From the IMG/VR virus record IMGVR_UViG_3300039065_000016: a DNA stretch of 64,000 nucleotides. One strand, given 5' to 3'. Under the pieces are notes generated by a model that ran no database searches, was not told the DNA's origin, and saw only the letters and a program-made list of their open reading frames with translations. The translations under genes were made by a program, and so were the position numbers. Shown in pieces: positions 3,141-60,351 of the stretch. Origin of the DNA: a virus. The stretch's first letter is position 1. Each line of letters begins with the position of its first letter.

Positions 3141-4003
3141 TACGCTGCTGGGCTCCCCATGACTTTGATATAGAACGGCCGATCCCGGCTGGCCAAATCA
3201 TACTCTAGAGCGGTGATCACATAGTTGCCGTTGACGCTTGGATTCATGAGAGATTCGACCGCGACACCGCCAGCCACGCGAATCGACGGTTCAAACAGAC
3301 ACTGAAATTCCACGCCCCATTCCGACCATGAAGGGATGCCGACGAATGAGTTGATGTTGGCAACTTCATCAGGACGAATGACCTTATCCCGGTCCTTCAC
3401 GACCAGAATGTCATCATCGACGAACGCGGCCACATCCGGCATGTACATATCCTGAATCGATGCCAGGATTGCCGACGCGACAGTGATCGACCGGCCCGGA
3501 TTCTTCAAAACTTGATCATTGTAGCTGGTGTCGCAGATGAAGTTAAGCCCCATTTCATTTGCGCCCCATTCGACGAACTTTACAAACGTCGTGTTGGCTG
3601 GCGGCATATTTCGAATAGTCTTCGTCCTATCGATTTGCCTTGTGTAGCATTGGATGCGAATTCCAATATCCGGTGGCGGCGAAATGACATCGACAATTGC
3701 CACTTCGCCGACAAATACTCTGGAAACTTGTTCGCGGCCCTGATCGGAATAACCGGCCTCAACCGATACTCTGATCATCAGTTCGTCTTCCATGCCTACT
3801 TGACGCTGCCGGTGCTTCCACGCTGTGAACTGCGACAGAAGAGACTCGCGCAATTGCGTCGTGAGTCCAAAGATTTCCAGGGTAGCTCGGTTTTGAATTC
3901 GCAATGCAGCCTTCATAATCCGGACCCGAACATCCAGGTCTTCACGGATGATTTCGGGTCCATAGGGCATATTGAATGTGACTCGCAGAATTCTCTTTTT
4001 CAT
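3140..4003 (-). CDS. tail/baseplate protein immediately downstream of tape measure (287 aa), function unassigned
   Basis: Track ORF. Start overlaps the tape-measure stop at 4003. Position corresponds to distal-tail/hub proteins in other myophages. Confidence 0.7.
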   Translation of the reverse strand: MKKRILRVTFNMPYGPEIIREDLDVRVRIMKAALRIQNRATLEIFGLTTQLRESLLSQFTAWKHRQRQVGMEDELMIRVSVEAGYSDQGREQVSRVFVGEVAIVDVISPPPDIGIRIQCYTRQIDRTKTIRNMPPANTTFVKFVEWGANEMGLNFICDTSYNDQVLKNPGRSITVASAILASIQDMYMPDVAAFVDDDILVVKDRDKVIRPDEVANINSFVGIPSWSEWGVEFQCLFEPSIRVAGGVAVESLMNPSVNGNYVITALEYDLASRDRPFYIKVMGSPAA

Positions 4004-15532: not shown

Positions 15533-16168
15533 TTACTGCGTGAGCTGGACGATGGTAACGCCAGCTACCAGATTTCCCGCCGACTGGGCAGGCAGGCTGA
15601 TGGCATTGACGATACGCGCGTTGGGGATTTGAACCAGGCCGGTTGGCATGGCGCCGGCCTTGAAACCGACCAGGGCGCCGGCCGGCAGGCCCAGGGCGTT
15701 GTCGGCGGTAGGCAGGTTGTTCGGTACATATGCCACCGGATCGCCGTAGCTCAAATCCAGAGCGGCTTCTGCGCCGTTGAAGATTTCGACGACCAGGCCG
15801 GTGGCCATGTCGAAGAACTCGCCTTCGGAACCGTCGGGCAGGTCATAACTGGGAGCCAGGGAATCGCCGGCCGACCCGTACAGAGCATAATGCTTCGGGT
15901 GACCGAGGATGCCGAAGAAGGTCGCGCCGCCGACCACGACTTCAGAAGCGCGCGCGGCAACGGTCTTCGGCTGGCCTTCACCGAGGGAGCCGACATCACC
16001 TGCGTAACCAAACGCGCGACTGATGCGGTTGGGGCCGGTGGCAGTCGCGGCCGGAGTGACCGATGCCAACGCCATGATCCGACCCGGCCGCGCACGCTTC
16101 GGGCCGTCCTCGATCAGATCACCAGGAAAACCAGGAGTGTACTGGCGATAGACTTGTTTCTGGAACAT
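15533..16168 (-). CDS. capsid decoration/cement or auxiliary scaffold protein candidate (211 aa, Gly/Ala-rich)
   Basis: Track ORF between the scaffold/protease and capsid genes. GGGGGAG SD. Confidence 0.45.
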   Translation of the reverse strand: MFQKQVYRQYTPGFPGDLIEDGPKRARPGRIMALASVTPAATATGPNRISRAFGYAGDVGSLGEGQPKTVAARASEVVVGGATFFGILGHPKHYALYGSAGDSLAPSYDLPDGSEGEFFDMATGLVVEIFNGAEAALDLSYGDPVAYVPNNLPTADNALGLPAGALVGFKAGAMPTGLVQIPNARIVNAISLPAQSAGNLVAGVTIVQLTQ

Positions 16169-16171
16169 GGG

Positions 16172-17608
16172 TTACTCCCCCTTCAGGTAACTGTCCAGCT
16201 CGGCGCACTGCGGAGCAGAACTGGCCGAATCCTGGGCTTTCGATTGACGGCTGGCCGCGCCACGAGCAGCTTCGACGCCTTTCAGGTACATGTCGAGCGC
16301 CAGAACTTCCTGGCCCTTCTCACAGCTGATCGCCAGCTTCTTCACGCCGTAAACAGCGACTTCAGCCGAGTCCATAGCTCGGTGGTCGAACGCACCAACC
16401 ACGGAACTAAGACGCTTGTAGAGGCGATCTTTAGCAGCAATGTCGCGATAGAGACCACGAATTGCAGCATCTTGCGCGTTCTTTTGTGCCATTTCAGGAA
16501 GTTCCTCGCTGTTATCCTTGCCCTCACCACCATCGTCGCTGGCGGTTTGCGCGCCGCAGAGGATGCTCTGTTCTTCCAAGCCCTCGACGACATCTTGACC
16601 TTCGCCATGTTCTTCGTCCGCCTCTTCGGCTACCGTGCCTTCCAGTCGAGCCAGAATGGCCTTGACCTGGGAGATCAGTTCGGCGACTTCGCCTTCACCG
16701 GACATTTCGGATGCGGCACCTTCTTGCTGTTCCGGCTCGACGGCGACCACGGCCGGATCGACAACGGACGGCGCTTCTTCGTGCTCTTCGTCGTCTTCCT
16801 GAGCGCCTTCCAGAGTCGGATGCTCGGTCATGTGCTCGCTGTCGGTCGGTTCGGCCGGAGCGGTTGCGCCTTCCTGATGCTCCGGCTCCTGCGCCTCTTC
16901 GCCCAGGAACTTCTGGACAGATGCAGAGAGCTTCGGCCACAGGGCGCGCAACTCTTCGACCGCCGAATCAGCAGCTTGTCCTGCGCGCTGGACAGGAGTC
17001 TTCTGCTTGGCTTTCTTGAGACCCATTTCATTACCCTCATCGGATGGTCTGAAATCAAAACTGAGATGGTCAAAGCACAGACCATCCAATACTCTGGCCC
17101 CCGGCACACGACCCTCTTTTACCAGGGCGATGTGGTTGCCGCGCATCTTGTCCTGGACGACTTCATAAGGCGTTCCATTCCAGATGCCGGGTTGCTCAGT
17201 GTAGCGGCAACTATAGCCTAGGGACAGATCTTCCTTGCCCCTTTCCAGCTGATTCTGCATGTTGCGGGAATAGATGCGGATATCGCCGCGAGCCCATGGA
17301 GCTTCGTAGTAGGCGTTGGCTGTGATGATGCCTTCCACGCCTTTGTCTTCGGGAGCCACGCCATCGTCATCGCCGTCGAATCCCGACAGCATTTCGTGCT
17401 CGTCGATCAGCGGGAGATTCTTCAGAGATTCGATGTACTCAGGATCGCTAACGGCAGACTCCGGACGATACACGTTGACAATCCGCATCGGATCGCCCGG
17501 AAGACCGAGTTGACCGGCAGAATATTGGAAAATGCCATAAGAGCTGATTGGACAGCCCTCGATGGTCATATATCCATTTTCGTCAATTTTTCTTTTCGAC
17601 TTTGCCAT
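16172..17608 (-). CDS. prohead scaffold / protease-like protein
   Basis: 478 aa. The N-terminal ~200 aa resemble DUF2213-type prohead proteins (from memory). A long E/D/A-rich acidic segment typical of scaffolds follows. Sits upstream of the capsid gene. Confidence 0.55.
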   Translation of the reverse strand: MAKSKRKIDENGYMTIEGCPISSYGIFQYSAGQLGLPGDPMRIVNVYRPESAVSDPEYIESLKNLPLIDEHEMLSGFDGDDDGVAPEDKGVEGIITANAYYEAPWARGDIRIYSRNMQNQLERGKEDLSLGYSCRYTEQPGIWNGTPYEVVQDKMRGNHIALVKEGRVPGARVLDGLCFDHLSFDFRPSDEGNEMGLKKAKQKTPVQRAGQAADSAVEELRALWPKLSASVQKFLGEEAQEPEHQEGATAPAEPTDSEHMTEHPTLEGAQEDDEEHEEAPSVVDPAVVAVEPEQQEGAASEMSGEGEVAELISQVKAILARLEGTVAEEADEEHGEGQDVVEGLEEQSILCGAQTASDDGGEGKDNSEELPEMAQKNAQDAAIRGLYRDIAAKDRLYKRLSSVVGAFDHRAMDSAEVAVYGVKKLAISCEKGQEVLALDMYLKGVEAARGAASRQSKAQDSASSAPQCAELDSYLKGE

Positions 17609-17640
17609 CGTTAATTCGAAGAGTCGTGGACTATGGCTGT

Positions 17641-17669
17641 ATTATATACGCAGGACATCTAAGGGTAAA
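17641..17669 (-). promoter_or_regulatory. sigma70-type promoter for the scaffold-capsid operon
   Basis: - strand TTTACC-17 nt-TATAAT (rc of 17664-17669 and 17641-17646), ~33 nt upstream of ATG 17608. The short leader has no obvious SD. Confidence 0.55.
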
Positions 17670-17896
17670 TAAGCGGAACAATAATTCGATGTAGCCGCGA
17701 CTGTTAATTTACACTAGAATCTGTATTGTGACCTAATTACCGGACTTCCTCAGCCGCGAAAACTGGTAAATTGGTTTCGGAAATTTGACGGGATTTGTCT
17801 AGGCCTACTGCCGCAAGACTTTCAATCTTTAAACTAATCCAAATTACCAATTTACCGATTAAAAATTGAATTTCAATGCGTATAGAGCATATCGAT

Positions 17897-17917
17897 TAAC
17901 GTTATATTATAACGTTA
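17897..17917. repeat. perfect 10-1-10 palindrome TAACGTTATA-t-TATAACGTTA
   Basis: Read directly. A third AACGTTA lies at 17939-17945. Copy B has only a half-site (GGTAACGTCC, 37550-37559). Confidence 0.95.
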
Positions 17918-18038
17918 CTTATAGATGAATTCTATTAGAACGTTATTCCTAATTTCCCATGCTATATACTTTTGCGGCATGCGGCGAAATCGGAAATTAG
18001 GAATTTAGCCTGTTAAAGCCTTGCGGCAGTAGGATTTC

Positions 18039-18072
18039 CAAATTACCGCTATTTCCCAGAAACGGTAATTTG
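18039..18072. repeat. 10-bp perfect inverted repeat CAAATTACCG-N14-CGGTAATTTG
   Basis: Arms at 18039-18048 and 18063-18072. Confidence 0.9.
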
Positions 18073-18099
18073 CGGCTATCCGGACCAGAATTTTTAGTC

Positions 18100-18113
18100 A
18101 GAATCCGGATTCT
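18100..18113. repeat. perfect 14-bp palindrome AGAATCCGGATTCT
   Basis: Read directly. A related AATCAGGATT lies at 18136-18145. Confidence 0.95.
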
Positions 18114-18257
18114 CGCGGCATCATCCGCCGAAAGCAATCAGGATTGAGACGCCGATGATGGCCAGATCAACTGCGGCAAACTTCAGGCTGAAGAATCCGC
18201 CGTTAATATTGGCCTTGATCACATCGGTCGCGAGTCGGCGTATGCATGTCTTTCGGT

Positions 18258-19320: not shown

Positions 19321-21617
19321 CACTTGCCTCCAAATGGCTTCGTCGTGTCGCCATTTGCCAGCCAACGACGGAAGGCGGGCAGATCAACTTCATGGATGGA
19401 GCCGAGTCCATCCCAGCCCGGACGGAAGCAAGACAGATATCCAGACTTGGCGTCGTTAATGTTGTTGAAACCGAGCATGCACTTGTGCTCGTCGAATTGC
19501 CCATCTTTGTTCACCTGGTTGACGACGAAGACCCGTTTCGAACCAAGGTTCGGGCCTACGAAGCAATCGACCTCATCCCCATCAGCCCCCTTCGTACCTT
19601 TGATGAATCCATAGTGGTGCTTCATCTGGACTCGCCAGCTCCCGTCCTTCCCTTGCCGGATACTTCCGCGCGGATTTTCGATCAAGGTAGTAATTCCATT
19701 GACCTTGATCCTCTGGAGTTCAGAATGATCACGAGGGCCGACGATGCGGTTGGACGAAAACACCGAAGGCTCCATACCCGATACGCTCGGCTTTGACGTT
19801 CTCTTCAGACCTGGCGCGTCATCCTGCTCTATGTCCACGCCGTCCGGAGCCTGCGCGTCGTCCAGGGCTTCGAGTTTCGACAGTAGATCGGACAGCAGGT
19901 TCCGAAGCTCGGCCCTGGGGTTCGGCCGCGACGGCGGTGTAGCGGCCTCGCCGGCCCCTTCCTCGGCCGCTTTCGCGAGGGGCTTAGTACCGCGTGGAGC
20001 GGCCGGAACTGGGTCGCCTGCGCCTTCTACGGCGCCCGCTTGGGCTTCGGCTCGCTCGGCCTCGCCTTTCGCCTTCGCCGACTGTGCACCGGCCTTTTCG
20101 AGTTCGGCCAGGTTTTCCGGAGACATGCCCGGCTCGGTTTCGGCCTGATCGTCGGTGAGTCGATTATAGCCGGAGCGCGGATCATCACGCAGGCGCTCGC
20201 GGACTTCATCCGGAGACACGACGCCGGAATTGATATAAATTTCATCAGTAGCAGCCTTCTTGTTGTTCAGCTCGGCTTGTTGCTGGCTGGTTGTGGAATC
20301 CACAGGGTTCCAGACGATTTCCAGCTGTACATCGATTGCTTCCGATTTTGCCAGCAGCAAATAATGACGCTCAAGCAGCGGGTCGAATATATGCTCTTGA
20401 ATCGATTCCAACTCTTCGTGATAAGAAATCGTCTCGTGCTCACCAGTCGCGTTGAATCCTTTGGGAGAAGTGCCGAGTAGCTTCGTCGCAGGAGTCTTGG
20501 CGATGGCCGCAACCAGCTGATATTGGTTCATGATGACGCTGTCGAAATCGGACAGGTTCGTATCGAACTGCTCCATGGTTTCATCAATACCAATAACTTT
20601 CACGCCATGGTTGTCTCGATTGGCGATCCAGAACGCCAGACGGGCGTTGAAGGCATCCTCATTCGCGATGGCCTTTTCCACGTCAACGTGAATGGTGCTG
20701 GTTCGCTTCGACATCGCCAGCAACGGCGCTTCGTTCGCAGTTCGCTCGGCAGCATACACGCGCTCGTAAATGCGCTGGGTGAGCGGGATGCCTCCGAAAA
20801 TGTATGTCGGCTTCAGGATATCTGGCGGCTGCGGCCCACGAACGACCACCAGATGGCTGCGATGATACTTCTTCCCGCTGATGATCCAAAAATCGGGCTC
20901 ATAGAAGTGTTCGGCAGACGGGTCTGCCGTGGACTCTGCGGTCAGCTGAGGCATTGCCCAATATGGATCTATCTGGGAAATTCCCTTGTACGAGCCGGGC
21001 GCTATTCCGTCTGGGTTGAATGGCTTCTCATAGTAGTCCGGATCGTCAGACTCAACGACGAACAGAGCGATTCGAACGCCGAAGACGTTTTTGAATCGGT
21101 TCAATTCGACGAGGTTGTCTTTGACGCGAAACTCCATGTCGCGCCGAGCGATCAGCGCGCTTTGTTCATCAGACAGCTTCCGGCCATCCGATTTGAGTTC
21201 CCATCCGTTCCGCGCGGCGTCTTCGCCTGACATGGAGCAAGCTTTGTCGACCAACCAGTGTTGAGAAATGATGGCGCAAGCTTGGTATCCGATGAATCCT
21301 TGGGAGTTATACCAGTCCTGCAGCATGGTCGGAACTACATAGGGATTCTGGCCGCCAGCGGCAGCTTTCGCGGCTGGGGTGGGTCCGTCACCATACGCAC
21401 TGTCCATTGCGACGGATAGGCCCGGCTCCAGGAAATCCTTCACGCTACGGATGACCGGGGCTTTCTCCGGCTCGACATTCCAGCCGCGAATCTTCCCCAG
21501 CTTAATCATAGGGTCGAGCGGATCGTGTTGAGGGATTCGTGCGACTTTCTCCGGCGCCGATTCAGAACAGGCAACATTATCCTTTTTGCGCCCGAATATC
21601 CAGGAAAGTTTAAACAT
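19320..21617 (-). CDS. portal protein with C-terminal pyrophosphatase-like extension
   Basis: 765-aa first ORF of the late block, directly upstream of the Mu-F-like gene. The N-terminal ~500 aa are of portal size. A low-complexity A/E/P linker is followed by a ~125-aa domain (see findings). Confidence 0.7.
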   Translation of the reverse strand: MFKLSWIFGRKKDNVACSESAPEKVARIPQHDPLDPMIKLGKIRGWNVEPEKAPVIRSVKDFLEPGLSVAMDSAYGDGPTPAAKAAAGGQNPYVVPTMLQDWYNSQGFIGYQACAIISQHWLVDKACSMSGEDAARNGWELKSDGRKLSDEQSALIARRDMEFRVKDNLVELNRFKNVFGVRIALFVVESDDPDYYEKPFNPDGIAPGSYKGISQIDPYWAMPQLTAESTADPSAEHFYEPDFWIISGKKYHRSHLVVVRGPQPPDILKPTYIFGGIPLTQRIYERVYAAERTANEAPLLAMSKRTSTIHVDVEKAIANEDAFNARLAFWIANRDNHGVKVIGIDETMEQFDTNLSDFDSVIMNQYQLVAAIAKTPATKLLGTSPKGFNATGEHETISYHEELESIQEHIFDPLLERHYLLLAKSEAIDVQLEIVWNPVDSTTSQQQAELNNKKAATDEIYINSGVVSPDEVRERLRDDPRSGYNRLTDDQAETEPGMSPENLAELEKAGAQSAKAKGEAERAEAQAGAVEGAGDPVPAAPRGTKPLAKAAEEGAGEAATPPSRPNPRAELRNLLSDLLSKLEALDDAQAPDGVDIEQDDAPGLKRTSKPSVSGMEPSVFSSNRIVGPRDHSELQRIKVNGITTLIENPRGSIRQGKDGSWRVQMKHHYGFIKGTKGADGDEVDCFVGPNLGSKRVFVVNQVNKDGQFDEHKCMLGFNNINDAKSGYLSCFRPGWDGLGSIHEVDLPAFRRWLANGDTTKPFGGK

Positions 21618-21651
21618 TTTAATTCCATGCGGTTGCTGGTTGTGTGCACTT

Positions 21652-21679
21652 ATTATAGGGGAAACATCAAACGTTCAAA
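21652..21679 (-). promoter_or_regulatory. sigma70-type promoter for the portal/late block
   Basis: - strand TTTGAA-16 nt-TATAAT (rc of 21674-21679 and 21652-21657), ~35 nt upstream of ATG 21617. Confidence 0.5.
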
Positions 21680-21741
21680 AGAGATTCAAACAGATACATC
21701 ACATTAACAGTCGCAACTAATCAGTTATGAGAAAATAATTC

Positions 21742-21770
21742 TTTACGGGAACTTTTCGGCAGATTAGACT
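21742..21770 (+). promoter_or_regulatory. sigma70-type early promoter (divergent from the portal promoter)
   Basis: TTTACG-17 nt-TAGACT, 27 nt upstream of ATG 21797. Confidence 0.5.
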
Positions 21771-36413: not shown

Positions 36414-36992
36414 TTATGTCTGAATGGGGTTGGCGCGGTCTTCCTCGGTCGGCTCCGGCGTCGGGGACGGGAAATCGCCCTCTTCGCCGTCCTGCACATA
36501 GCCATTGGCTTCGGCCGCAGCAGCGACGGTGGCGGTCTGAGCCTCGGCTTCTGATGCGTAGAAGTCGGCCAATCCGCGACCTACCCTGGTCTTACCAGAC
36601 TCGTCAACGAACGTGATTTCGGCCAGAACGTTCAATTCCTTGATGGCCGACAGACGGCTGGAGTCCTTGACGGTGGGATCACGAACCATCTGGAGAAGTT
36701 CGTGAAGCGCCGTCTTTGGATTCCATAGATCGGACGTTCTGGTCGCATTCAGCTTGGCTTTGAATTGCTTGCGATAGTACGGGTTGGACTCCATCGCGAA
36801 GATGCGGGCCTGGGCCGGGCCATCCATGTGCTCTTCGCCCCAGATCGCTCTGAAGACCCGCCAGGAGCTATAGCCTTGAACGCGCAGGTCGATGTACAGA
36901 TCGAAACGCTTCTGGTTGATCGCCGCGAACTGCGGATCAGCGAATTCCTGTGGCGTGACTAAATCGTCGGGGCTGTAATATTTGGCGGTCAT
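36414..36992 (-). CDS. terS: putative terminase small subunit
   Basis: 192 aa. N-terminal FDLYIDLRVQGYSSWRVFRAIWG...ARIFAMESNPYYRKQF looks like the HTH region of Terminase_2-type small subunits. DSSRLSAIKELNVLAEI resembles their oligomerisation helix. Acidic tail. Call rests on pattern recognition only. Confidence 0.45.
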   Translation of the reverse strand: MTAKYYSPDDLVTPQEFADPQFAAINQKRFDLYIDLRVQGYSSWRVFRAIWGEEHMDGPAQARIFAMESNPYYRKQFKAKLNATRTSDLWNPKTALHELLQMVRDPTVKDSSRLSAIKELNVLAEITFVDESGKTRVGRGLADFYASEAEAQTATVAAAAEANGYVQDGEEGDFPSPTPEPTEEDRANPIQT

Positions 36993-37170
36993 TTGTTGCT
37001 GCGTCCCTGGAGTTCGATTCTTGGACCGTCGCGGTGGCTGGGTAGGTGGCTGGGACCTGGTGCTTGCCGCGACACTGAGTATGGCGCGATTGTACTATGG
37101 GGCCAGGGAGCGCGTCTATGGGCTGCTTGTGGGTGGCCTGTAGGTCTGGGTGGGTTTGATGGTGAATGAG

Positions 37171-37200
37171 TGTTAGGTGGTGTTATAGGATGTTATATGG
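37171..37200 (+). repeat. three TGTTA repeats at exact 10-nt phasing
   Basis: tgttaggtgg tgttatagga tgttatatgg. Further TGTTA copies at 37272 and 37284. Confidence 0.9.
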
Positions 37201-37444
37201 GCGGTCTGCTGGCGGGTGAGGGTCGGATTGGTGGGTGGCGGGCGATGGTGGCGGTGAGTGTTTGGATTGAATGTTAAATCGGATGTTAGGAATATGTCCA
37301 GGTGAGCGATTCTGCCCTGTGACCAAATTTCCGGTTCCGCTCGTCGAGTTTTGGCCCCTGCCGCTTAGTCCGCCGTGGTGTTGCCGCTGCCCATGGTTTG
37401 GAAGGACGGAAGTTTCCGGCGACCCTGCCGCGAGTTGAGTGGAA

Positions 37445-37727
37445 TCGGAAACTCGACGGGTAGTGTACCGGCTTAGTGCCGCGAGGCTTTCAAAGACTAA
37501 ACTATTCCAAATTACCAAATTACCATTAATTTTATTAATTTTAAAGATAGGTAACGTCCGTGATAGATTTTTTCTATTAGGATTGTGCAATCGATTTTCG
37601 CTGTAGAATAGTTTTAAACCATGCTCGAAAAACCGGGAATTAGGGAATATGGCCGCAAACCCGCGCGGCAGTAGGCCTCCCATCTTCCCAGTCAGAATAG
37701 CAATCCAGGAATTTGCGGCTATTTCCA
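37445..37727. repeat. AT-rich non-coding module, copy B
   Basis: Colinear with 17777-18081. Block spacings agree within 1-3 nt, apart from a 26-nt palindrome-bearing insertion in copy A. Confidence 0.85.
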
Positions 37728-37904
37728 CACAAAAATCCACCTCAAACCCACAATTTCTCAACATTTCACGCAAAATCCAACCATCATACACTCCAGACCA
37801 ATACCGAAATCTATTAACTTCCCATAATACGCCATCGCCACGCCAACCTAATTCCCACATAGCTTTCAAGCCTCACCCGTTCACAAGCTAAATTAATGTT
37901 CTCC

Positions 37905-37936
37905 GCGACAAAGAAAAGACCGCCCGAAGGCGGCCT
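37905..37936 (-). terminator. intrinsic terminator after the helicase gene
   Basis: - strand reads ccgcc-ttcg-ggcgg followed by tcttttctttg. Lies 26 nt after the stop at 37962. Confidence 0.6.
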
Positions 37937-37961: not shown

Positions 37962-39701
37962 TCAGAAATCCTCGCCCAATATCTTGGCTCGCTCTGCCCG
38001 TACTGCTCGAATTTTTGCCATGGCAGCCTCATCGGTCATATCCGGATCGCCCTTTCTCAACAGATACACCAGCGCATCATTGAATGGCGGCAGCGTCGTC
38101 TGCATATTCTTCGACCAGTCAGGCGCGACCTTATCCACAGGCAGGCACCATCCATTCAGGCCGTTCTTATTCGGAATGAATCCCAGCGCTTTCAGGTGTG
38201 GAGTTAAATGGCGAGAAATCGGCTTCTTCCTGGCGAGAATATCGAACCACTTCAGAATGGAAACGGTGTCTGCCCTCCACCCAGGAGTCTTGGAATTCCC
38301 ACCAGGCTTAACCTCTTCGAACTCACAACTGATCAGGACATTGATCAGATACATATCAATCGTATCGTCGCGAACCACGCCGCGCGCATTCTCCATTTCC
38401 GAAATAGAGAAGTTCTGGACTTCGCGGTTTGCTTCCGACACCATATTCAGGTAGCCATCGACGCCGTGCTCTTCGATCCATGCGCGGCATTCAGCCATCG
38501 CTTGCCAGAATTTGCGGCCGAAGTCGGTGAAGTCCACCTTGAACGGTTCATTGCCATCGCCCGGCTTAACCCAGTTCGGCTTTCCATCCTCATCGGGCAG
38601 TTGCGCAACAAACATAGGATAGAAACGTCGGTTACCAGAGTCGTCCCGCTGGAGTCCATCGTAGCCGTTGCCGTCCATGATGGTGATCCATTGTCGCTTG
38701 ATCGTTTCGCCCGGCTCAAACTTCTGGTCGAATGTATCAGAAGACCGCACCAAGAACTCCTTGATGCGTTCCATGTCGCCCTTTTTGAAGCCGGACATTT
38801 CCCCGACGTTCGCAATGACCGAGTTGCCGGTGATGTTGCGCAGGAATGGTGTCTGGTCGTGTCGGCTCAGGTCGAGCTGGACGGGAGCCAGATCGCGACC
38901 GCCCGACAGTTCCTTGCAGATCAGCAGGCCGAAATAGGATTTCCCCGCATCCTGCCCACCAATCAACGCCAGCGAGATCGGCGCCGAGATTCCAGGATAG
39001 TTGATGCGGCAGTACAGGCTCAGCCAGAAATACTTGCTCACCATCCGGTTCAATTCGGTGTCGAATGGCTTAAAAAGATCGATCAGCAACGTGCTAATTC
39101 GCTCTTCGCCGTCCCACTCCGGTATCTTCTTCTCGAACGTCTCTATCAGCGAGTTGCGGCGGTATCGACGCGCCCAAACGCAGCAAGTCTCAATCGTCTT
39201 CTTAATCGAGGGATCGTCCAAGGCCGCAGCCGCGAGGGCGCCCATCAGGTCAATCGGGTCGAGGGTCTTGTTGTTGAACGCCACGCCGCGATGGTCCACC
39301 AGCCGTCCGCGAAACTCGTCGAAGTGCGGATGCGGGACGGTTCCATCACCCTTGCAGAACAAAGTATCGTACACCGCGAGATAGTTGCTGTCGGAAGTCG
39401 AGCTGTATTTAGTGATGAAGTCATCGAACGGCCCTTTCACCACCCGGCTGACCGGAAGATCGAACGCCTGGTCGAGCATCAACAATCGCGCTCGCTTTCT
39501 CAAGTCTGGTTCCGCATACGCCTCGGCGTATCTTGCCGCCTTTTGTGCGCGGTGCGTTTCGTTCCTCGCAATCGCATCATCGGCCGCCTTGCTCGCGGCG
39601 GTCATCAAAGGGTCCATTCCAGCATCTTCTATCTGTGTGAGATCGAACTCACTGGACCCTGATTCGTCATCATCAAAAATATTATCTTCGTCGATAATCA
39701 T
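37962..39701 (-). CDS. VirE/VapE-type primase-associated replicative helicase (P-loop NTPase)
   Basis: 579 aa. Walker A LIGGQDAGKSYF. Overall layout resembles VapE/P4-alpha C-terminal helicases from memory. Adjacent to the primase gene. Confidence 0.6.
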   Translation of the reverse strand: MIIDEDNIFDDDESGSSEFDLTQIEDAGMDPLMTAASKAADDAIARNETHRAQKAARYAEAYAEPDLRKRARLLMLDQAFDLPVSRVVKGPFDDFITKYSSTSDSNYLAVYDTLFCKGDGTVPHPHFDEFRGRLVDHRGVAFNNKTLDPIDLMGALAAAALDDPSIKKTIETCCVWARRYRRNSLIETFEKKIPEWDGEERISTLLIDLFKPFDTELNRMVSKYFWLSLYCRINYPGISAPISLALIGGQDAGKSYFGLLICKELSGGRDLAPVQLDLSRHDQTPFLRNITGNSVIANVGEMSGFKKGDMERIKEFLVRSSDTFDQKFEPGETIKRQWITIMDGNGYDGLQRDDSGNRRFYPMFVAQLPDEDGKPNWVKPGDGNEPFKVDFTDFGRKFWQAMAECRAWIEEHGVDGYLNMVSEANREVQNFSISEMENARGVVRDDTIDMYLINVLISCEFEEVKPGGNSKTPGWRADTVSILKWFDILARKKPISRHLTPHLKALGFIPNKNGLNGWCLPVDKVAPDWSKNMQTTLPPFNDALVYLLRKGDPDMTDEAAMAKIRAVRAERAKILGEDF

Positions 39702-44000: not shown

Positions 44001-45174
44001 CTTCACCGTCGATCAGATCGAAGAGCGATTCGGCTTCCGACCTAATAGCCAGCAGATCGACGCGATAAATTCCGTCGTTAACTGGTATCGCGGTTGGTGT
44101 GATCGAGCGCACCGCCGTCAGGTCTATCGACTCGCCGGTTTTGCAGGAACTGGTAAGACTTCTATTGCGAAGATCATCGCCGAACTTTGCTGCTCGATGG
44201 ACTGGACAGTCTTCATCGCGCCGACCGGAAAGGCCGCCGCGCGGCTTCGTGAGAAAGGTTGCGTCAATGCCCGGACTCTTCACAGCTTTATCTATCGACC
44301 GATTGGTGAAGATGAAGACGGCGAAATCATGTTTGCCAACAAAGACTCGCTCGACGAGAAACCGAAGTTGGTAGTTCTCGACGAGTCGTCCATGATCGGC
44401 GAGTGGGATGAAGAGCGCCTGTTGTCGCACCGAATTCCGGTTCTGGAGATTGGCGACTTTGGCCAAGTTCCTCCTGTACGCGGCGTCCAGATTTTCCACG
44501 AGAACAGCTGTGACACCATCATGACCGAAATCGAGCGCAACGCTGGCAATATCGTTCGGGCGTCGATGTTCGTCCGCCAGGGAAAGCGCCTGCCCTGCCG
44601 CGAGTATGACGACATATTGGTCCGGGCCGGCTTCGATATGTCGGATGATGAAATGCGGACGTTCCTGGACGATGATGGCGTGATTCTTTGTGCTTACAAC
44701 AATACTCGCCGTCGCTTGAACGCACGCGCTCGCCGAATCCTCGGCTACAAAGGTGCGCAGCCGGGAATCGGCGAGAAGCTGGTATGCACTGGGAACCAGC
44801 ACGAATATGGAATCATGAACGGCGAACAAGCCATTCTGCTGGACTTCAAGCCGGTTCCTGAAGGGCAAGAAGATGATGACGAGCCTGATGAAATGTTGTT
44901 CGCCAAAGTTCGCATTATCGGTACGAACTTTGAACGCTGGGTTAAGTTCAATCCTCTGAGTTTTTCGGTCGAGGAAGACGTGCGGCTGGAGGCGCAGAAG
45001 GCCATTGGCGGATTCGACTTCGGATGGGCGATGACGTTCCACAAGTCGCAGGGATCAGAATGGAAACGGGTCGCCATGTTAGAAGAAAACTTGCCGTCCA
45101 TCCCTTATAGTCAGTTGATGTATACTGGGATAACTCGCGCAATCGAATACTTACTGTTCTTGCGTAAAAGCTAG
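43987..45174 (+). CDS. RecD/Dda-like SF1 DNA helicase
   Basis: GFAGTGKTS (Walker A), LVVLDESSM (Walker B) and C-terminal AMTFHKSQGSEW. ATG 43987 follows GGAG; the track start 43972 is TTG. Confidence 0.8.
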   Translation: MSASNFTVDQIEERFGFRPNSQQIDAINSVVNWYRGWCDRAHRRQVYRLAGFAGTGKTSIAKIIAELCCSMDWTVFIAPTGKAAARLREKGCVNARTLHSFIYRPIGEDEDGEIMFANKDSLDEKPKLVVLDESSMIGEWDEERLLSHRIPVLEIGDFGQVPPVRGVQIFHENSCDTIMTEIERNAGNIVRASMFVRQGKRLPCREYDDILVRAGFDMSDDEMRTFLDDDGVILCAYNNTRRRLNARARRILGYKGAQPGIGEKLVCTGNQHEYGIMNGEQAILLDFKPVPEGQEDDDEPDEMLFAKVRIIGTNFERWVKFNPLSFSVEEDVRLEAQKAIGGFDFGWAMTFHKSQGSEWKRVAMLEENLPSIPYSQLMYTGITRAIEYLLFLRKS

Positions 45175-45210
45175 GAACTTCTCGAACATAAATAAGTTCC
45201 CTAGAGTTTG
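45171..45210 (+). terminator. hairpin after the helicase gene (weak terminator candidate)
   Basis: ctaggaactt-13 nt-aagttc(c)ctag followed by agtttgg. Confidence 0.35.
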
Positions 45211-48071: not shown

Positions 48072-48337
48072 TGTACGCACCAGACCATCCTGAAGAGGTT
48101 CCTATGTCTTTCCTCGAAATGCAAATCGACCCGCCGCAAACGCGACAGACAGCGCCGTCTTTCGTGCTGGTAGGCATCCTGTACCTGATTGGCGATGGAC
48201 GCCTGGACGATAAGCCTTTCACTTCGTTCAACCTGTCGTTCGGCAGTCGCGAAGAGGCCGAGCGCGCCCGCGACAAGATTATTGAGCATTACCTGGACCG
48301 TCGCGATATTCGCGCCGAAATCATCCGCTGCTACTGA
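48071..48337 (+). CDS. hypothetical protein (88 aa)
   Basis: TAATG overlap. An alternative start at 48104 follows GAAGAGG. Confidence 0.5.
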   Translation: MYAPDHPEEVPMSFLEMQIDPPQTRQTAPSFVLVGILYLIGDGRLDDKPFTSFNLSFGSREEAERARDKIIEHYLDRRDIRAEIIRCY

Positions 48338-48348
48338 GGATTACAGTA

Positions 48349-48555
48349 ATGTCCATTGAACTGGTGTACCGGACCTCTGATGGCACTATCTTCTCGTCCA
48401 TGTGCCACGCCGAAGAGTATGAAGACCGTCTGGAGGCGTGCAAATTGCTGGCCGAAGAGATCGACAGATACGGTCTACACAAGGAAGATGCACAAGCGTT
48501 GGCCATTGCGCTGACGGAGAAATTCACTTTCACGCCAATTCCGGAAGATTTCTGA
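48349..48555 (+). CDS. hypothetical protein (68 aa)
   Basis: Track ORF. GAGGA SD. Confidence 0.55.
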   Translation: MSIELVYRTSDGTIFSSMCHAEEYEDRLEACKLLAEEIDRYGLHKEDAQALAIALTEKFTFTPIPEDF

Positions 48556-49472
48556 TGAAAATTTCTCTGATCAGTTATACTCAGAACGCCTGGGAACTTC
48601 TCCTGGGCACAAAATCCACCCGCATGCGCGGCCAAGACCCGGCGACCATGACCGAAGCCGAAAAGCTCGACCACTGGAAGTACATGCTGGACACCATTCG
48701 CTCGCCATTCGAATTCGTGGACTTCATCTTCCAGATCGAGGGCGTCAGCAAGAATTTCACTCATCAACTCGTTCGGACTCGGACCGGGGCTTACCAGCAG
48801 GAAACCAGTCGCGCTCTGGAGGTTAGCGCCGTTGTTCAGCCGGAAGCGTTCCGCTGGGATTTCGATGAGAAGGCTACGGCCAATGGTGAGCCGGACCCGA
48901 CCTATCACGCTCGTGAAGAGCTGAACCGCCTGTGGCATGATGCAATCGCCGACGCGCAGACCAGTTACCAGAAGCTCTTGGAGGCCGGCGCATCGCTTCA
49001 GGATGCTCGTGCCATCATCCCTTCCAACATGGAAACGAAGATCGCGGCCAAATTCAATCTGCGCACTCTGAGCGACATGGCGAAAGTTCGCCTGTGTGTT
49101 CGTACGCAAGGTGAGTATCAGGAAGCCTTCCGCGAAATGCGCCGACTGGTTCTGGAAGTCTATCCTATGTTCGATAGTCTGCTCCAGCCGCACTGCGTCG
49201 CCACTGGCTCCTGTGCCTTCCCGCGCTATGGATCGAAGGTTCTGAATGAAGATGAGATTCATGAGCAATCCTGTGACCGCTTCATGTCCGCTCTGGAGAC
49301 GAAGCCCGGCCAGATTCCTGTTGTTGAGTTGCCGGTGAAACCGATCTATCAGTGCAAGTTCTATCGTCCATGGATGGATCGCTCGGCCGAGCAGGAAGAG
49401 CTGCGCCGCGAGTTCTGGGGATCGGAGAAACAAGAGGCCAATCCTGTAGCGGTCAATGGGAAGTCAATGTAG
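48555..49472 (+). CDS. thyX: ThyX-like flavin-dependent thymidylate synthase (divergent signature motif)
   Basis: The N-terminus MKISLISYTQNAWELLLGTKSTRM and FEFVDFIFQIEGVSKNFTHQLVRTRTGAYQQETSRA follow the ThyX layout. The RHRxxSxxxxSxR motif reads RTRTGAYQQETSR. TGATG start overlap. Confidence 0.6.
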   Translation: MKISLISYTQNAWELLLGTKSTRMRGQDPATMTEAEKLDHWKYMLDTIRSPFEFVDFIFQIEGVSKNFTHQLVRTRTGAYQQETSRALEVSAVVQPEAFRWDFDEKATANGEPDPTYHAREELNRLWHDAIADAQTSYQKLLEAGASLQDARAIIPSNMETKIAAKFNLRTLSDMAKVRLCVRTQGEYQEAFREMRRLVLEVYPMFDSLLQPHCVATGSCAFPRYGSKVLNEDEIHEQSCDRFMSALETKPGQIPVVELPVKPIYQCKFYRPWMDRSAEQEELRREFWGSEKQEANPVAVNGKSM

Positions 49473-59369: not shown

Positions 59370-60281
59370 ATGAAACCCATGCTCGCATCGAACTATGACC
59401 CGGAACTTCTGGACGGCCAGTTGCCGATGTACTTTTCTCCGAAGATCGATGGTTTTCGCTGTTTCATATTTGAAGGCGAAGCCTTGACGCGAAGCCTAAA
59501 GCCGCAGACCAACCAGTCCATCCGTGAATATCTCAGCGATGCAATGTTCGATGGCCTGGATGGCGAACTGGTCTGCGGCGACATCAGAGACCCGAAAGTA
59601 TTCCAGAAGTCGTCCGGCGACCTTCGCCGTCGCGACGGTGAACCGGATTGGTCTTTCCACGTGTTTGACGATTTCACCGATCCGCGCGCGCCGACCGAAG
59701 AGCGACTGGCCAGAGCTGCCGAGCGCGTCAGCTTTCTGAAGAACTGCATCGGCTATGAGAGGATTCACCTAGTCGAGCAGGAACTGGTCACCTCCATCGA
59801 ACAGTTCAGCGAAGTCGAACGTCGCCACACAGGACTTGGATTCGAAGGCTCCATGGGCAAGCGCGCTGATGGCGCATACAAGTTCGGGCGCTCTACTGCC
59901 AAGGAAGGTTACTGTGTCAAGGTTAAGCGCTATGACTATGATGAAGCAGAGATTGTTGACGTCGAAGAGCTGATGCACAACAACAACGAAGCATTCACGG
60001 ATGAGCTAGGTCGCACGGCCCGCTCCAGCCATGCGGAAAATCTGGCCCCATCAGGCATGGTTGGAGCATTCGTCTGCCGCAACGAGGTTTTGTGGCCTGG
60101 AGTTACCTTCAATGTGTCGGCGTCCAGCCTGACCCACGACGAGAAAAAACGGCTCTGGAATGACAGGGAACATCTCAAGCGCCAGGTCATCCGATTTAAG
60201 CACTTCTCCCATGGCGCCAAGGATAAGCCACGACACGCTGTCTTCGACTGCTGGCTGGACGGATGGGGTGCCAGCCACTGA
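59370..60281 (+). CDS. lig: ATP-dependent DNA ligase
   Basis: Adenylation motif I FSPKIDGFR (KxDG). At 303 aa it is the size of a minimal phage ligase. EG-x-M and K-x-K-type motifs follow (FEGSMGK, CVKVKR). Confidence 0.8.
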   Translation: MKPMLASNYDPELLDGQLPMYFSPKIDGFRCFIFEGEALTRSLKPQTNQSIREYLSDAMFDGLDGELVCGDIRDPKVFQKSSGDLRRRDGEPDWSFHVFDDFTDPRAPTEERLARAAERVSFLKNCIGYERIHLVEQELVTSIEQFSEVERRHTGLGFEGSMGKRADGAYKFGRSTAKEGYCVKVKRYDYDEAEIVDVEELMHNNNEAFTDELGRTARSSHAENLAPSGMVGAFVCRNEVLWPGVTFNVSASSLTHDEKKRLWNDREHLKRQVIRFKHFSHGAKDKPRHAVFDCWLDGWGASH

Positions 60282-60304
60282 TTCTAGCGTACACTAGAGC
60301 GAAG

Positions 60305-60351
60305 AAAACCCGGACTCCTTACCCTAAAGGCGATCCGGGTTTTCTCGTTTT
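60305..60351 (+). terminator. intrinsic terminator (large loop)
   Basis: aaaacccgga-19 nt-tccgggtttt followed by ctcgtttt. Confidence 0.55.

What the first reader, a model, noticed from the sequence alone, without database searches (positions are those of the whole stretch)
17777..18081. Two colinear copies of a ~300-bp AT-rich non-coding module, 19.7 kb apart (copy B at 37445-37727)
Seen directly: the only two long gene-free stretches of this tightly packed genome share the same blocks, in the same order and on the same strand. The shared blocks (copy A / copy B start) are:
- TCGGAAA(T/C)T(T/C)GACGGG at 17777 / 37445
- ..TGCCGC.AG.CTTTCAA...TAAACTA.T in both copies
- CCAAATTACCAA(T/A)TTACC at 17839 / 37507
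- TTCTATTAG at 17930 / 37572
- GG(G)AA(A)TTAGG(G)AAT at 17992 / 37635
- GCGGCAGTAGG at 18023 / 37665
- AATTTGCGGCTAT at 18067 / 37710
Block-to-block spacings are 62/64, 31/29 and 44/45 nt. The one larger difference is 91 versus 65 nt, explained by a 26-nt insertion in copy A that creates a perfect palindrome.
CAAATTACC-type words occur at least 8 times in both orientations across the two copies.
Both copies lie on the 5' side of minus-strand virion/packaging genes (the scaffold-capsid operon and putative terS).
No reading frame is conserved. The frame that is open in copy B is stopped in copy A, and substitutions are not third-position biased.
Inference: this is a functional DNA or RNA element. 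It could be a replication origin with iterons, a binding platform for a phage late-transcription factor or packaging protein, or a pair of sRNA genes. I know of no described function for such a module.
Basis: partly seen in the sequence, partly recalled or inferred. Interest (0 to 1): 0.8.

Follow-up and report, generated by a model that had tools for sequence, protein, structure and literature searches.

The report
Twin packaging-start modules in a phage
The two look-alike non-coding stretches are real: one is where this Pseudomonas phage's DNA-packaging enzyme makes its first cut, just upstream of the small-terminase gene, and the other is an apparently uncut twin in front of the head-protein genes, a pairing kept in three related phage genera and not yet explained.

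Summary
The window is a Pbunavirus (PB1-like) genome. The reported colinear similarity is real: local score 77 against 20±2.3 in shuffles, and the part beyond the strongest 86-bp block is still significant.

Both copies share one layout. An AT-rich core is flanked by iterons (CCAAATTACC) and by GCCGC boxes that point inward.

Copy B lies upstream of terS, whose product matches the solved E217 small terminase (PDB 7UXE). Its core holds the fixed virion-DNA end reported for JG024 ('pac 59,376') and for Ab27/28/29, equivalent to window 37593. It also carries an experimentally mapped σ70 start site (14-1 P040) that the iterons overlap.

The key new result is comparative. Serratia phage MyoSmar and E. 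coli phage WFC have the same two-copy design at the same two places (upstream of terS and upstream of the head protease). Their iterons are genus-specific and occur nowhere else in the genome. The GCCGC polarity is the same. Their terminal-repeat boundary lies in the core of the terS copy.

So copy B is the packaging-initiation (pac) region. Copy A is a co-evolving twin with no conserved cut site. It probably binds the same protein, most likely TerS, but its role is unknown. The origin and transcription-factor readings are not excluded. The sRNA, ORF and mobile-element readings are rejected.

The parts
17732..18125 (.).
   Evidence: Conserved along its whole length in 12 pbunaviruses. Genome-wide maximum of the inward GCCGC polarity score.
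17777..17792 (+). Box X of copy A (TCGGAAATTTGACGGG)
   Evidence: Shared with 37445-37460.
17804..17822 (.). Left arm of the long-range inverted repeat of copy A (CCTACTGCCGCAAGACTTT), carrying the inner GCCGC box
   Evidence: pair I1: 19 nt, 95% complementary to 18015-18033, 192 nt apart. The arms change together between clades, CAAG/CTTG versus CGAG/CTCG.
17839..17856 (+). Tandem iterons of copy A (CCAAATTACCAATTTACC)
   Evidence: The word family is almost confined to the two modules.
17857..17991 (.). AT-rich core of copy A, including the perfect 21-nt palindrome at 17897-17917
   Evidence: GC 33-38% against 55% for the genome. Palindrome is pair I9. The palindrome was earlier predicted as a σ70 promoter in JG024, but no start site was found there in 14-1.
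17992..18005 (.). Inverted iteron variant of copy A (GGAAATTAGGAATT), partner of 17945-17960
   Evidence: pair I2.
18015..18033 (.). Right arm of the long-range inverted repeat of copy A (AAAGCCTTGCGGCAGTAGG)
   Evidence: pair I1. Annotated as 'repeat_region' in phages antinowhere and cory.
18038..18079 (.). Outer inverted iteron pair (CAAATTACCG / CGGTAATTTG) and the AATTTGCGGCTAT block of copy A
   Evidence: pair I7. The 13-mer is shared with 37710-37722.
17634..17669 (-). σ70 promoter of the protease-scaffold-capsid operon (equivalent of 14-1 P014; start site about 17634). It lies outside the module, about 140 bp downstream of it.
   Evidence: TTTACC-17-TATAAT. Same sequence as the 14-1 P014 start site at 13257.
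16172..17608 (-). Head-maturation protease gene, first gene of the head operon downstream of copy A
37445..37727 (.). Copy B, between terS and the VapE/VirE-type primase gene
37445..37460 (+). Box X of copy B (TCGGAAACTCGACGGG). It lies in the 5' leader of the terS mRNA.
37470..37490 (.). Left arm of copy B (GGCTTAGTGCCGCGAGGCTTT). The equivalent of the 14-1 P040 start site falls at about 37490 on the minus strand.
   Evidence: pair I1: 21 nt, 81% complementary, 166 nt apart. P040 start site at 14-1 position 59399; mapped to the window by reading the sequence.
37491..37540 (-). Promoter region equivalent to 14-1 P040 (σ70 type, extended -10 TGGAATAGT in the window). The tandem iterons at 37507-37524 lie upstream of and abutting its extended -10 element.
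   Evidence: Supplementary Table S3 of Putzeys et al.. Transcription unit TU045 runs 59399-60626 and covers terS.
37507..37524 (+). Tandem iterons of copy B (CCAAATTACCAAATTACC)
37525..37634 (.). AT-rich core of copy B
   Evidence: Invariant across 12 genomes between 37525 and about 37610.
37593..37594 (-). Fixed virion-DNA end (pac cut). The packaged DNA starts at 37593 and runs towards terS: GCGAAAAT^CGATTGC on the minus strand.
   Evidence: JG024 'putative pac site 59,376' maps here. Position 1 of the Ab28, TH15, E2005-C and fHoPae01 records is at 37593, and of PA8P1 at 37591. Pa204, SIIA-P1 and PB10 start at 37592-37593. Essoh et al. based the Ab27/28/29 start on reads with a single fixed end.
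37635..37677 (.). Right-hand iteron variant (GGGAATTAGGGAAT) and right arm (AAACCCGCGCGGCAGTAGGCC) of copy B
   Evidence: Exists as two alleles in the genus; the window allele is the one that resembles copy A.
37710..37722 (+). AATTTGCGGCTAT block of copy B
36993..37320 (-). GT-rich tract (CA-rich in the terS leader RNA), with the proximal σ70 promoter (equivalent of 14-1 P041; start site about 37082)
37720..37900 (+). Mirror-image CA-rich tract between copy B and the primase terminator
   Evidence: pairs I2-I4. The same layout is seen in MyoSmar and Gekk3-15.
36414..36992 (-). terS (small terminase)
   Evidence: PDB 7UXE 'Small terminase', E = 2.8e-121. 43% and 41% identical to the MyoSmar and WFC homologues.
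37962..39701 (-). VapE/VirE-type primase gene and its terminator (37917-37936)
   Evidence: PF05272, E = 1.6e-22. Terminator.

Best explanation
The two modules are paralogous copies of the phage's packaging-initiation (pac) recognition region.

Each copy is a quasi-palindromic platform of about 250-400 bp. An AT-rich core is flanked on both sides by genus-specific iterons (here CCAAATTACC / GGTAATTTGG) and by GCCGC boxes that point towards the core.

Copy B, upstream of terS, is the working pac site.
- Shown, from published end mapping and record starts: virion DNA has a fixed end at 37593 and the packaged DNA runs from there towards terS. That the terminase makes this cut is inferred.
- Shown in the relative 14-1: copy B also holds a σ70 promoter that makes a long-leader terS mRNA.
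- Inferred: because the iterons lie just upstream of and abut its extended -10 element, the protein that binds them should repress this promoter.

Copy A, upstream of the protease-scaffold-capsid operon, is a second platform.
- Inferred from its co-evolution with copy B: it is bound by the same recognition protein.
- Inferred, not shown: that protein is most likely the decameric TerS.
- Copy A lacks a conserved cut site and shows no sign of being a DNA end.

The role of copy A is not established. The two most likely options are:
- an operator that ties head-gene expression to the amount of TerS;
- a synapsis partner of pac, as in the T4 'twin-ring' model.
For: The duplication is real and is the best intragenomic match.

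Packaging context of copy B:
- terS identity: PDB 7UXE, E = 2.8e-121.
- Fixed end in the core: JG024 pac 59,376 (long reads plus an extra restriction fragment, PMC10913387) maps to window 37593.
- Essoh et al. (PMC4482731) saw reads with one fixed end and no DTR. Ab28 record position 1 is window 37593.
- At least eight records from several laboratories start at 37591-37593, and about 18 of 281 records are split at that point.
- The sequence around the cut is invariant in 12 of 12 genomes.

Same design in two other genera, with no nucleotide similarity to this one:
- MyoSmar: 54859-54909 vs 3464-3515, E = 7e-10. The iteron ACGAAAAGTA occurs only in the two modules.
- WFC: three matches, E = 3.5e-7 to 1.8e-4. 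The iteron ACGGATGATAC occurs 8 times, all in the two modules.
- In both, one copy is upstream of terS and the other upstream of the head protease.
- In both, a physical genome end lies in the core of the terS copy. MyoSmar has its PhageTerm DTR boundary at 3559. WFC position 1 and the PhageTerm position 1 of Mansfield are the same nucleotide.

GCCGC polarity in the six modules:
- Left of centre there are 19 GCCGC and 0 GCGGC. Right of centre there are 1 and 16 (Fisher p = 2e-9).
- The innermost inverted pair is about 187-213 bp apart in four of the six modules and brackets the DNA end in all three terS-side copies.
- Each module is in the top 0.2-1.1% of its genome for this score.

Promoter:
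- 14-1 P040 start site and transcription unit TU045.
Against: - No experiment shows which protein binds the iterons. The TerS review (PMC9611059) states that E217 TerS showed no appreciable DNA binding in vitro.
- Copy A has no known function. No fixed end is reported there and 279 of 281 records run through it intact.
- Aeromonas phage Gekk3-15 and Xanthomonas phage FoX7 have only one module, so a second copy is not essential to this packaging system.
- The layout (iterons, AT-rich core, inverted boxes, next to a primase gene) fits a replication origin equally well. [quoted passage not shown]
- Some of the record starts at 37593 may follow earlier records rather than new measurements.
- PhageTerm on phage Banzai found no peak at all.
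Confidence: 0.5

Rival explanations
1. The modules are two replication origins, or an origin plus a cis-acting partner. A phage initiator or the primase-helicase binds the iterons and opens the AT-rich core. The inward GCCGC boxes are priming or loading sites on opposite strands. On this view the pac cut merely happens to lie in the same open region.
For: - Each module has iterons in both orientations, an AT-rich core and inverted flanking boxes.
- Copy B lies directly downstream of the VapE-type primase gene here, in MyoSmar and in Gekk3-15. FoX7 has an iteron-rich AT region directly after its primase-helicase gene, 3.3 kb from terS.
- Two distant iteron sites bound by one replication protein have precedents in SPP1 oriL/oriR and P4 ori/crr (my own knowledge).
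- The SCUT-S1 authors raised the origin idea.
Against: - In WFC the module stays with terS and is 9 kb from the primase gene, which has no gap after it.
- The only direct data concern virion DNA ends, which are a packaging feature.
- Cumulative GC skew has its minimum at about window 43,500, the divergent early promoters, not at either module. The Banzai study places the skew minima in the DNA polymerase gene and at about 52 kb.
- The P040 transcript runs away from the AT-rich core, unlike promoter-plus-unwinding-element origins.
Confidence: 0.2
2. The modules are shared upstream regulatory regions of two late transcription units (terS and the head operon). A phage transcription factor or a host nucleoid protein such as MvaT/H-NS binds them and times or boosts the nearby σ70 promoters. 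On this view the pac function uses only the unshared core of copy B.
For: - Both copies lie 140-400 bp upstream of mapped σ70 promoters of late genes (14-1 P014 and P041). Copy B contains a further promoter, P040.
- WFC has strong σ70-like promoters downstream of both of its copies (read from the sequence).
- 14-1 is thought to redirect host RNA polymerase through gp12, which binds the α subunit. AT-rich upstream DNA is what the α subunit contacts.
Against: - The other σ70 promoters of 14-1 (26 in the published σ70 motif) do without such a module.
- No start site was found at the equivalent position in copy A, and its -10 element has decayed.
- The DNA end falls between the shared arms in three genera, which suggests the arms position the cut.
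- No candidate factor has been identified.
Confidence: 0.2
3. Copy A is a decaying relic of an old duplication of the pac region, kept only by chance or by occasional gene conversion, with no function of its own.
For: - Gekk3-15 and FoX7 manage with one module.
- The right arm of copy B shows mosaic alleles, one of them like copy A, so sequence exchange between the copies does happen.
Against: - Copy A is conserved along its whole length in the 12 aligned genomes, and a 171-bp query from it matches 281 records, 279 of them at 80% or more of its length.
- A second copy persists at the same place in three genera and shares the genus-specific iterons of its partner, although the genera have no nucleotide similarity to each other.
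- Copy A has the strongest GCCGC polarity in the genome.
Confidence: 0.05
4. The regions encode small RNAs or small proteins (for example the 'ORF75' annotated over copy B in some records), or they are copies of a miniature mobile element.
For: - Some GenBank records annotate hypothetical proteins over both regions, and a PHROG family (phrog_18478) exists for the copy B frame.
- Each module is bounded by inverted repeats.
Against: - The open frame varies from 115 to 229 codons, in different frames, among close relatives. It is explained by stop-poor CA-rich composition.
- There is no Pfam hit, no Rfam hit and no tRNA.
- The published 14-1 tables list no short transcript or terminator in either module.
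- There are only two copies, always at the same two syntenic places. No target-site duplication is seen, and the homology runs beyond the inverted arms.
Confidence: 0.03

Closest known systems
pac region of Bacillus phage SPP1 (pacL-pacC-pacR), from my own knowledge and the TerS review PMC9611059
   Same: - It is a region of a few hundred bp at the start of the terS transcription unit.
- TerS contacts repeated boxes on both sides of the place where TerL makes the first cut.
- It overlaps the terminase promoters.
- Packaging is headful, with one fixed end.
   Different: - SPP1 has one pac site, with no second copy elsewhere in the genome.
- Here the flanks are symmetric, with inverted arms and inward GCCGC boxes.
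- TerS binding has not been shown here.
pac site of phage P1 (clusters of hexanucleotide elements on either side of the cleavage region), from my own knowledge
   Same: Two clusters of short oriented words flank a central cut region of about 160-200 bp, next to or inside the small-terminase (pacA) gene.
   Different: - The P1 words are Dam-methylation sites, and P1 has an IHF site in the centre.
- No IHF consensus is present here.
- P1 has a single copy.
T4 gene 16 / gene 19 pac-like sequences and the 'twin-ring pac synapsis' model (review PMC9611059; details from my own knowledge)
   Same: - Two homologous short DNA sites several kb apart, one in or near terS and one among the head and neck genes.
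- They are proposed to be brought together by stacked TerS rings.
- The C-terminal helix of E217 TerS was proposed to link two rings.
   Different: - The T4 sites are about 24 bp, lie inside coding sequence and are about 3 kb apart. T4 has no unique pac cut.
- Here the sites are about 300-bp non-coding modules 19.7 kb apart, and one of them is a defined cut site.
Two-site iteron systems of replication: SPP1 oriL/oriR bound by G38P, and P4 ori/crr bound by the α primase-helicase (my own knowledge)
   Same: Two distant non-coding regions share the same iterons and an AT-rich segment. One lies next to the replication gene and one lies among late genes.
   Different: - Those sites are defined by replication assays.
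- Here the only experimental signal is a packaging end.
- In WFC the module travels with terS, not with the primase gene.

Membership tests
Headful pac site (applied to copy B) | Lies in or next to the small-terminase gene | tested here: met
   terS matches PDB 7UXE. The module lies 450-730 bp upstream of its start codon, on the same transcript.
Headful pac site (applied to copy B) | Virion DNA shows one preferred fixed end at the site, while the genome is otherwise circularly permuted | tested here: met
   This rests on published data mapped onto the window:
- JG024 pac 59,376 maps to 37593.
- Essoh et al. reported reads with a fixed end, and the Ab28 record starts at 37593.
- The genome is reported as permuted.
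I could not re-analyse the raw reads.
Headful pac site (applied to copy B) | Repeated recognition elements flank the cut | tested here: met
   Iterons and inverted GCCGC arms bracket 37593. The same holds for the DTR ends of MyoSmar and WFC.
Headful pac site (applied to copy B) | Sequence-specific binding by TerS | not testable with these tools
   The literature reports no appreciable DNA binding by E217 TerS in vitro. The review passage read here does not say which DNA was tested.
Headful pac site (applied to copy A) | A preferred DNA end at the site | tested here: not met
   - 279 of 281 records run through copy A intact. Only the E215 record opens there, which chance can explain.
- The MyoSmar and Mansfield records annotate a single PhageTerm DTR and no end at the protease-side copy.
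- The ATCGAT word in copy A is not conserved and is common in the genome.
Iteron-type replication origin | Iterons plus an AT-rich unwinding region | tested here: met
Iteron-type replication origin | Strand-composition switch or marker-frequency peak at the site | tested here: not met
   The cumulative GC-skew extremes lie elsewhere (Banzai study). Skew is a weak test in phages. Marker frequency could not be tested.
Iteron-type replication origin | Linked to the initiator or primase gene across relatives | tested here: inconclusive
   Adjacent to the primase gene in Pbunavirus, MyoSmar, Gekk3-15 and FoX7. In WFC it is 9 kb away and stays with terS.
σ70 promoter region | Experimentally mapped transcription start with -35/-10 elements | tested here: met
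   Met for copy B only: 14-1 P040. No start site maps inside copy A. The nearest, P014, lies outside the module.
Described RNA family or small RNA gene | Covariance-model match, or a discrete short transcript | tested here: not met
   No Rfam match at E ≤ 1. The 14-1 transcription-unit and terminator entries retrieved include no short RNA or terminator in either module (Table S7 itself was not read).
Miniature inverted-repeat mobile element | Terminal inverted repeats at the element ends, target-site duplication, dispersed copies | tested here: not met
   The homology runs beyond the inverted arms, no duplication flanks them, and there are only two copies at fixed syntenic sites in all genomes.

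The most novel reading that the evidence does not exclude
Packaging initiation in this phage lineage uses two sites. Decameric TerS rings loaded on the pac module (copy B) and on its uncut twin 16-20 kb away (copy A) pair with each other. This is the synapsis proposed for T4 but never tied to defined DNA sites. The phage would then sense concatemer state, or couple expression of the head operon to packaging, through a DNA loop between the terS and head-gene regions.
Probability: 0.15. Interest if true: 0.8.

Novelty: new variant of a known kind. Interest (0 to 1): 0.6.

Why it matters
How small terminases recognise viral DNA is still unsettled, and the solved E217 TerS showed no DNA binding in vitro.

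This analysis supplies a concrete DNA substrate for that protein. It defines the iterons, the inward GCCGC boxes and a cut point. The layout recurs in three genera with co-varying iterons, which amounts to a natural specificity-swap experiment.

The second copy, uncut and co-evolving in front of the head genes, is not part of any standard pac model. If it binds TerS, it would reveal either a regulatory role for TerS or a two-site recognition mechanism.

Pbunaviruses are leading therapeutic phages, and engineering platforms for them already exist (JG024, R26). That gives two practical consequences:
- Knowing the pac region and its twin matters for genome design and for assessing transduction risk.
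- The proposed tests are feasible now.

Tried and rejected
- **Short iteron scan of IMG/VR.** The hits were almost all chance matches. A 32-base specific pattern found only three pbunavirus contigs, so I used GenBank phage records instead.
- **RNA readings.** There are no Rfam hits and no tRNA. The transcription-unit and terminator entries retrieved from the published 14-1 tables show no short transcript or terminator in either module. I did not build covariance models, because the only transcript starts inside the module and continues into terS.
- **Coding reading.** The frames are not conserved. The only family hits are PHROGs of unknown function built from such annotations.
- **Origin by GC skew.** The extremes lie elsewhere.
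- **IHF site in the core, as in P1 or λ.** There is no consensus match anywhere in the window.
- **ATCGAT as a shared cut signal in copy A.** The word occurs 32 times in the window and is not conserved in copy A.
- **A vestigial second DTR boundary about 3.6 kb from copy B.** Nothing convincing was found.
- **A third polarity peak at window 57.9 kb.** It lies inside a coding region and is taken as chance.
- **The Lokareddy et al. E217 terminase paper.** It is not held in the library, so its DNA-binding result is cited through the review.
- **The position of the SCUT-S1 'Pac site'.** It is given neither in the text nor in the GenBank record.
Full report
**Identity of the window**

The window is a nearly complete Pbunavirus (PB1-like) genome of Pseudomonas aeruginosa. 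At copy A it is 99.5% identical to phages E79 and misfit, and 283 phage records match both regions. It runs in reverse orientation relative to the reference phage 14-1.

- Copy A lies between the small gp20/gp21-like genes and the head-maturation protease gene (16172-17608, minus strand).
- Copy B lies between the VapE/VirE-type primase gene (37962-39701, minus strand; PF05272) and a 192-codon gene (36414-36992, minus strand).

- The strongest part is an 86-bp match, 17777-17862 vs 37445-37529, at 78% identity. E is 3e-13 against the whole window, and it is the best non-self hit.
- The local score is 77, against 20.0 ± 2.3 in 500 dinucleotide shuffles.
- After removing that block, the remaining about 270 bp still align colinearly far above shuffles and above 632 other windows of the genome (34 against 3.4 ± 1.7).
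- The 26-nt extra segment of copy A and its perfect palindrome (17897-17917) are real.
- No frame is conserved. The long open frame over copy B that some records annotate as a protein ranges from 115 to 229 codons, in different frames, among 12 close relatives. It is a by-product of a stop-poor CA-rich composition.

**Anatomy**

Each copy is more than a string of shared words. Both have a long-range inverted repeat:

- Copy A: 17804-17822 and 18015-18033, 19 nt, 95% complementary, 192 nt apart.
- Copy B: 37470-37490 and 37657-37677, 21 nt, 81% complementary, 166 nt apart.

These arms enclose tandem iterons (CCAAATTACC-type), an AT-rich core and inverted iteron variants. AAATTACC occurs six times in the window, five of them in the modules.

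The pentamer GCCGC lies on the top strand to the left of each core, and its complement GCGGC lies to the right. All boxes therefore point inward. The polarity score of copy A is the genome-wide maximum, and copy B is in the top 1%.

Alignment of 12 pbunaviruses shows the following:

- Copy A is conserved throughout.
- Copy B is conserved from terS up to about 37640.
- Beyond that, copy B exists as two alleles. The window allele resembles copy A. The 14-1 allele differs, and its right arm is the exact complement of its left arm. This points to sequence exchange between the copies.

**What the neighbours are**

The gene downstream of copy B is the small terminase. It matches PDB 7UXE, the decameric TerS of pbunavirus E217, with E = 2.8e-121. 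The TerS review notes that this gene lies far from terL. It also notes that the protein showed no appreciable DNA binding in vitro.

**Published transcription data**

ONT-cappable-seq of phage 14-1 (PMC10914365; tables in the supplement of bioRxiv 10.1101/2023.10.13.562163) maps a σ70-type start site, P040, at 14-1 position 59399. Its promoter sequence is ATTAATAAAATTAATAGTAATTTGGTAATTTGGTATACTTTAGTATTTGA.

- This lies inside the conserved block of copy B.
- The tandem iterons lie just upstream of and abut the extended -10 element.
- The start falls in the left arm, equivalent to window position about 37490 on the minus strand.
- The transcript (TU045) runs 1,227 nt through terS.
- A second promoter, P041, lies close to terS.

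In copy A no start site maps at the equivalent place, and the -10 element there has decayed. The head operon is served by P014, which lies outside the module. No terminator or short RNA is reported in either module.

**Published DNA-end data**

Several independent sources place a fixed DNA end in the core of copy B.

- The JG024 rebooting study (PMC10913387) concluded that the genome is circularly permuted. [quoted passage not shown] I fetched JG024 and mapped that base to window 37593, in the centre of copy B.
- Essoh et al. [quoted passage not shown] The Ab28 record starts at window 37593 and runs towards terS.
- TH15, E2005-C and fHoPae01 also start at 37593, and PA8P1 at 37591. Pa204, SIIA-P1 and PB10 start at 37592-37593. 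Pa193 and PaP1_EPu have terS about 600 nt from position 1.
- About 18 of 281 records are split at this point.

The sequence around the cut (GCGAAAAT^CGATTGC on the minus strand) is invariant in my 12-genome alignment. Some of these starts may copy earlier conventions, but at least two rest on independent read evidence.

By contrast, 279 of 281 records run through copy A intact.

**The decisive comparison**

Serratia phage MyoSmar (Myosmarvirus) and E. coli phage WFC (Wifcevirus) share gene order and a 41-43% identical TerS with the window. They have no nucleotide similarity to its modules. Both nevertheless have the same two-copy design at the same two places.

MyoSmar:
- The gap upstream of the head protease matches a site upstream of terS (54859-54909 vs 3464-3515, E = 7e-10).
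- The 10-mer ACGAAAAGTA occurs three times in the genome, all in these two regions.

WFC:
- The protease-upstream gap (15927-16349) matches the terS-upstream gap in three segments (E = 3.5e-7, 1.2e-6 and 1.8e-4).
- The 11-mer ACGGATGATAC occurs eight times in the record, all in these two regions.

The inward GCCGC polarity is present in all six modules. Left of centre there are 19 GCCGC and 0 GCGGC, and right of centre 1 and 16 (Fisher p = 2e-9). Each module is in the top 0.2-1.1% of its genome.

This polarity is opposite to what the flanking G-rich and C-rich composition would produce, so it is not a composition artefact.

In both phages a physical genome end lies in the AT-rich core of the terS copy, between the innermost inverted GCCGC pair (about 190-200 bp apart):
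- MyoSmar: the PhageTerm terminal-repeat boundary at 3559.
- WFC: position 1 of the record, which is the same nucleotide as the PhageTerm-defined position 1 of phage Mansfield. In both, terS is at 361-834.

The window's 37593 lies between the equivalent pair (37478 and 37665).

More distant relatives with this TerS family have only one module:
- Aeromonas phage Gekk3-15 has it in the terS-primase gap, with the same layout of a GT-rich tract, an iteron core and a CA-rich tract.
- Xanthomonas phage FoX7 has an iteron-rich AT region after its primase gene.
- Neither has a detectable second copy.

**Interpretation**

Shown:
- The duplication is real.
- The shared architecture is real.
- Copy B holds the fixed packaging end and a terS promoter.
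- A second copy upstream of the head operon is maintained in three genera, with iterons that change together with those of the terS copy.

Inferred:
- Because the iterons are genus-specific yet identical between the two copies of one genome, both copies are read by the same rapidly evolving DNA-binding protein.
- Because the shared arms bracket the cut in three genera, that protein is most likely the pac-recognition subunit, TerS.
- Binding at the copy B iterons would occlude P040 and so autoregulate terS.

Copy A has no conserved cut site and no sign of being an end. I therefore read it as an uncut binding platform. It could act as an operator linking head-gene expression to TerS, or as a synapsis partner of pac.

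Confidence:
- That copy B is the pac region: about 0.8.
- That both copies bind one factor: about 0.65.
- That the factor is TerS: about 0.45.
- The whole statement: 0.5.

**Rivals**

- **Replication origin.** The layout also fits an iteron origin, and two-site iteron systems exist (SPP1 oriL/oriR and P4 ori/crr, from my own knowledge). Against this, the WFC module stays with terS 9 kb from the primase gene, GC-skew extremes lie elsewhere, and the only experimental signal is a packaging end.
- **Shared late-gene regulatory region.** This is possible, since both copies lie upstream of σ70 late promoters. But the other σ70 promoters of 14-1 lack such modules, and the DNA end sits between the shared arms.
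- **Relic, sRNA, small-protein and mobile-element readings.** These are contradicted by conservation, by the Rfam and transcript data, by frame instability and by the fixed syntenic positions.

**Comparison with known systems**

Copy B works like the SPP1 and P1 pac regions, where recognition repeats on both sides of the cut lie next to terS. By three of four defining features it is a pac site. The fourth, TerS binding, is untested.

No pac model I know of includes a conserved second, uncut copy. The nearest idea is the T4 gene 16/gene 19 'twin-ring synapsis'.

[quoted passage not shown] I found no description of the paired module, within the library I could search.

**Verdict**

- It is a new variant of a known kind.
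- Interest is 0.6. It is not categorically new. It gives a defined DNA substrate for a solved TerS that has resisted DNA-binding assays, and it poses a testable puzzle in the conserved twin.

Noticed in passing
window 36993-37320 and 37720-37900; MyoSmar L131:3740-3870; Gekk3-15 48100-48400 and 48700-48950 (record coordinates, L141): Copy B is flanked by mirror-image skewed tracts: GT-rich on the terS side, which makes the terS mRNA leader CA-rich, and CA-rich on the primase side. The same layout recurs in MyoSmar and Gekk3-15. The CA-rich composition creates a long stop-free frame that many records annotate as a hypothetical protein (ORF75, phrog_18478). That frame is not conserved.
   Followed up: partly
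window 37635-37730, compared with L004 (14-1), L125, L127, L129 and L048: The right arm of copy B exists as two alleles in the genus. One resembles copy A (window, billy, PA01, Pa-J, JG024). The other has a different word order, and its GC box is the exact complement of the left arm (14-1, PA5, LBL3, E2005). This suggests gene conversion or recombination between the two modules or between phages.
   Followed up: partly
MyoSmar 3531, 68676, 68708 (record coordinates); WFC 3735, 3832 and 68542, 68587; window 37462: (A)GTGTAC words lie within about 30-150 bp of both terminal-repeat boundaries in MyoSmar and WFC. TAGTGTACC occurs in copy B of the window. AGTGTACG occurs only three times in MyoSmar, all next to the two boundaries. 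This may be a terminase cut-related signal.
   Followed up: partly
window 17937-17938 (NC_042080.1 / MF490241.1, phage E215): The E215 record is opened inside the core of copy A. With 281 records and arbitrary starts, one such case is expected by chance, so I give it no weight. The raw reads would be worth checking for a fixed end.
   Followed up: no
FoX7 record coordinates 53540-53960 (L135:22540-22960): Directly after the primase-helicase gene, Xanthomonas phage FoX7 has an AT-rich region with five copies of GGCGTTATT(T)AA in both orientations, and GCCGC to the left with GCGGC to the right. It lies 3.3 kb from terS and has no second copy. It may be the single-copy ancestral form of the module or a separate origin.
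   Followed up: partly
window 17732, 17839, 17948, 18038: CCTAATTACC-like words in copy A recur at spacings of 107, 109 and 90 bp, roughly ten helical turns. This would suit DNA wrapped on a ring-shaped protein. I did not test it statistically.
   Followed up: no
window 17804-17822 / 18015-18033 across the 12 genomes: The two arms of copy A, 192 nt apart, change together between clades (CAAG with CTTG, CGAG with CTCG). PA01 is a mixed case. There are too few independent events to separate base-pairing from gene conversion.
   Followed up: partly
window 21551-21750 and 45051-45200: The only other AT-rich stretches of the window are the divergent promoter regions, equivalent to 14-1 P012/P013 and P036-P038. 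The minimum of cumulative GC skew lies near the second of them.
   Followed up: no
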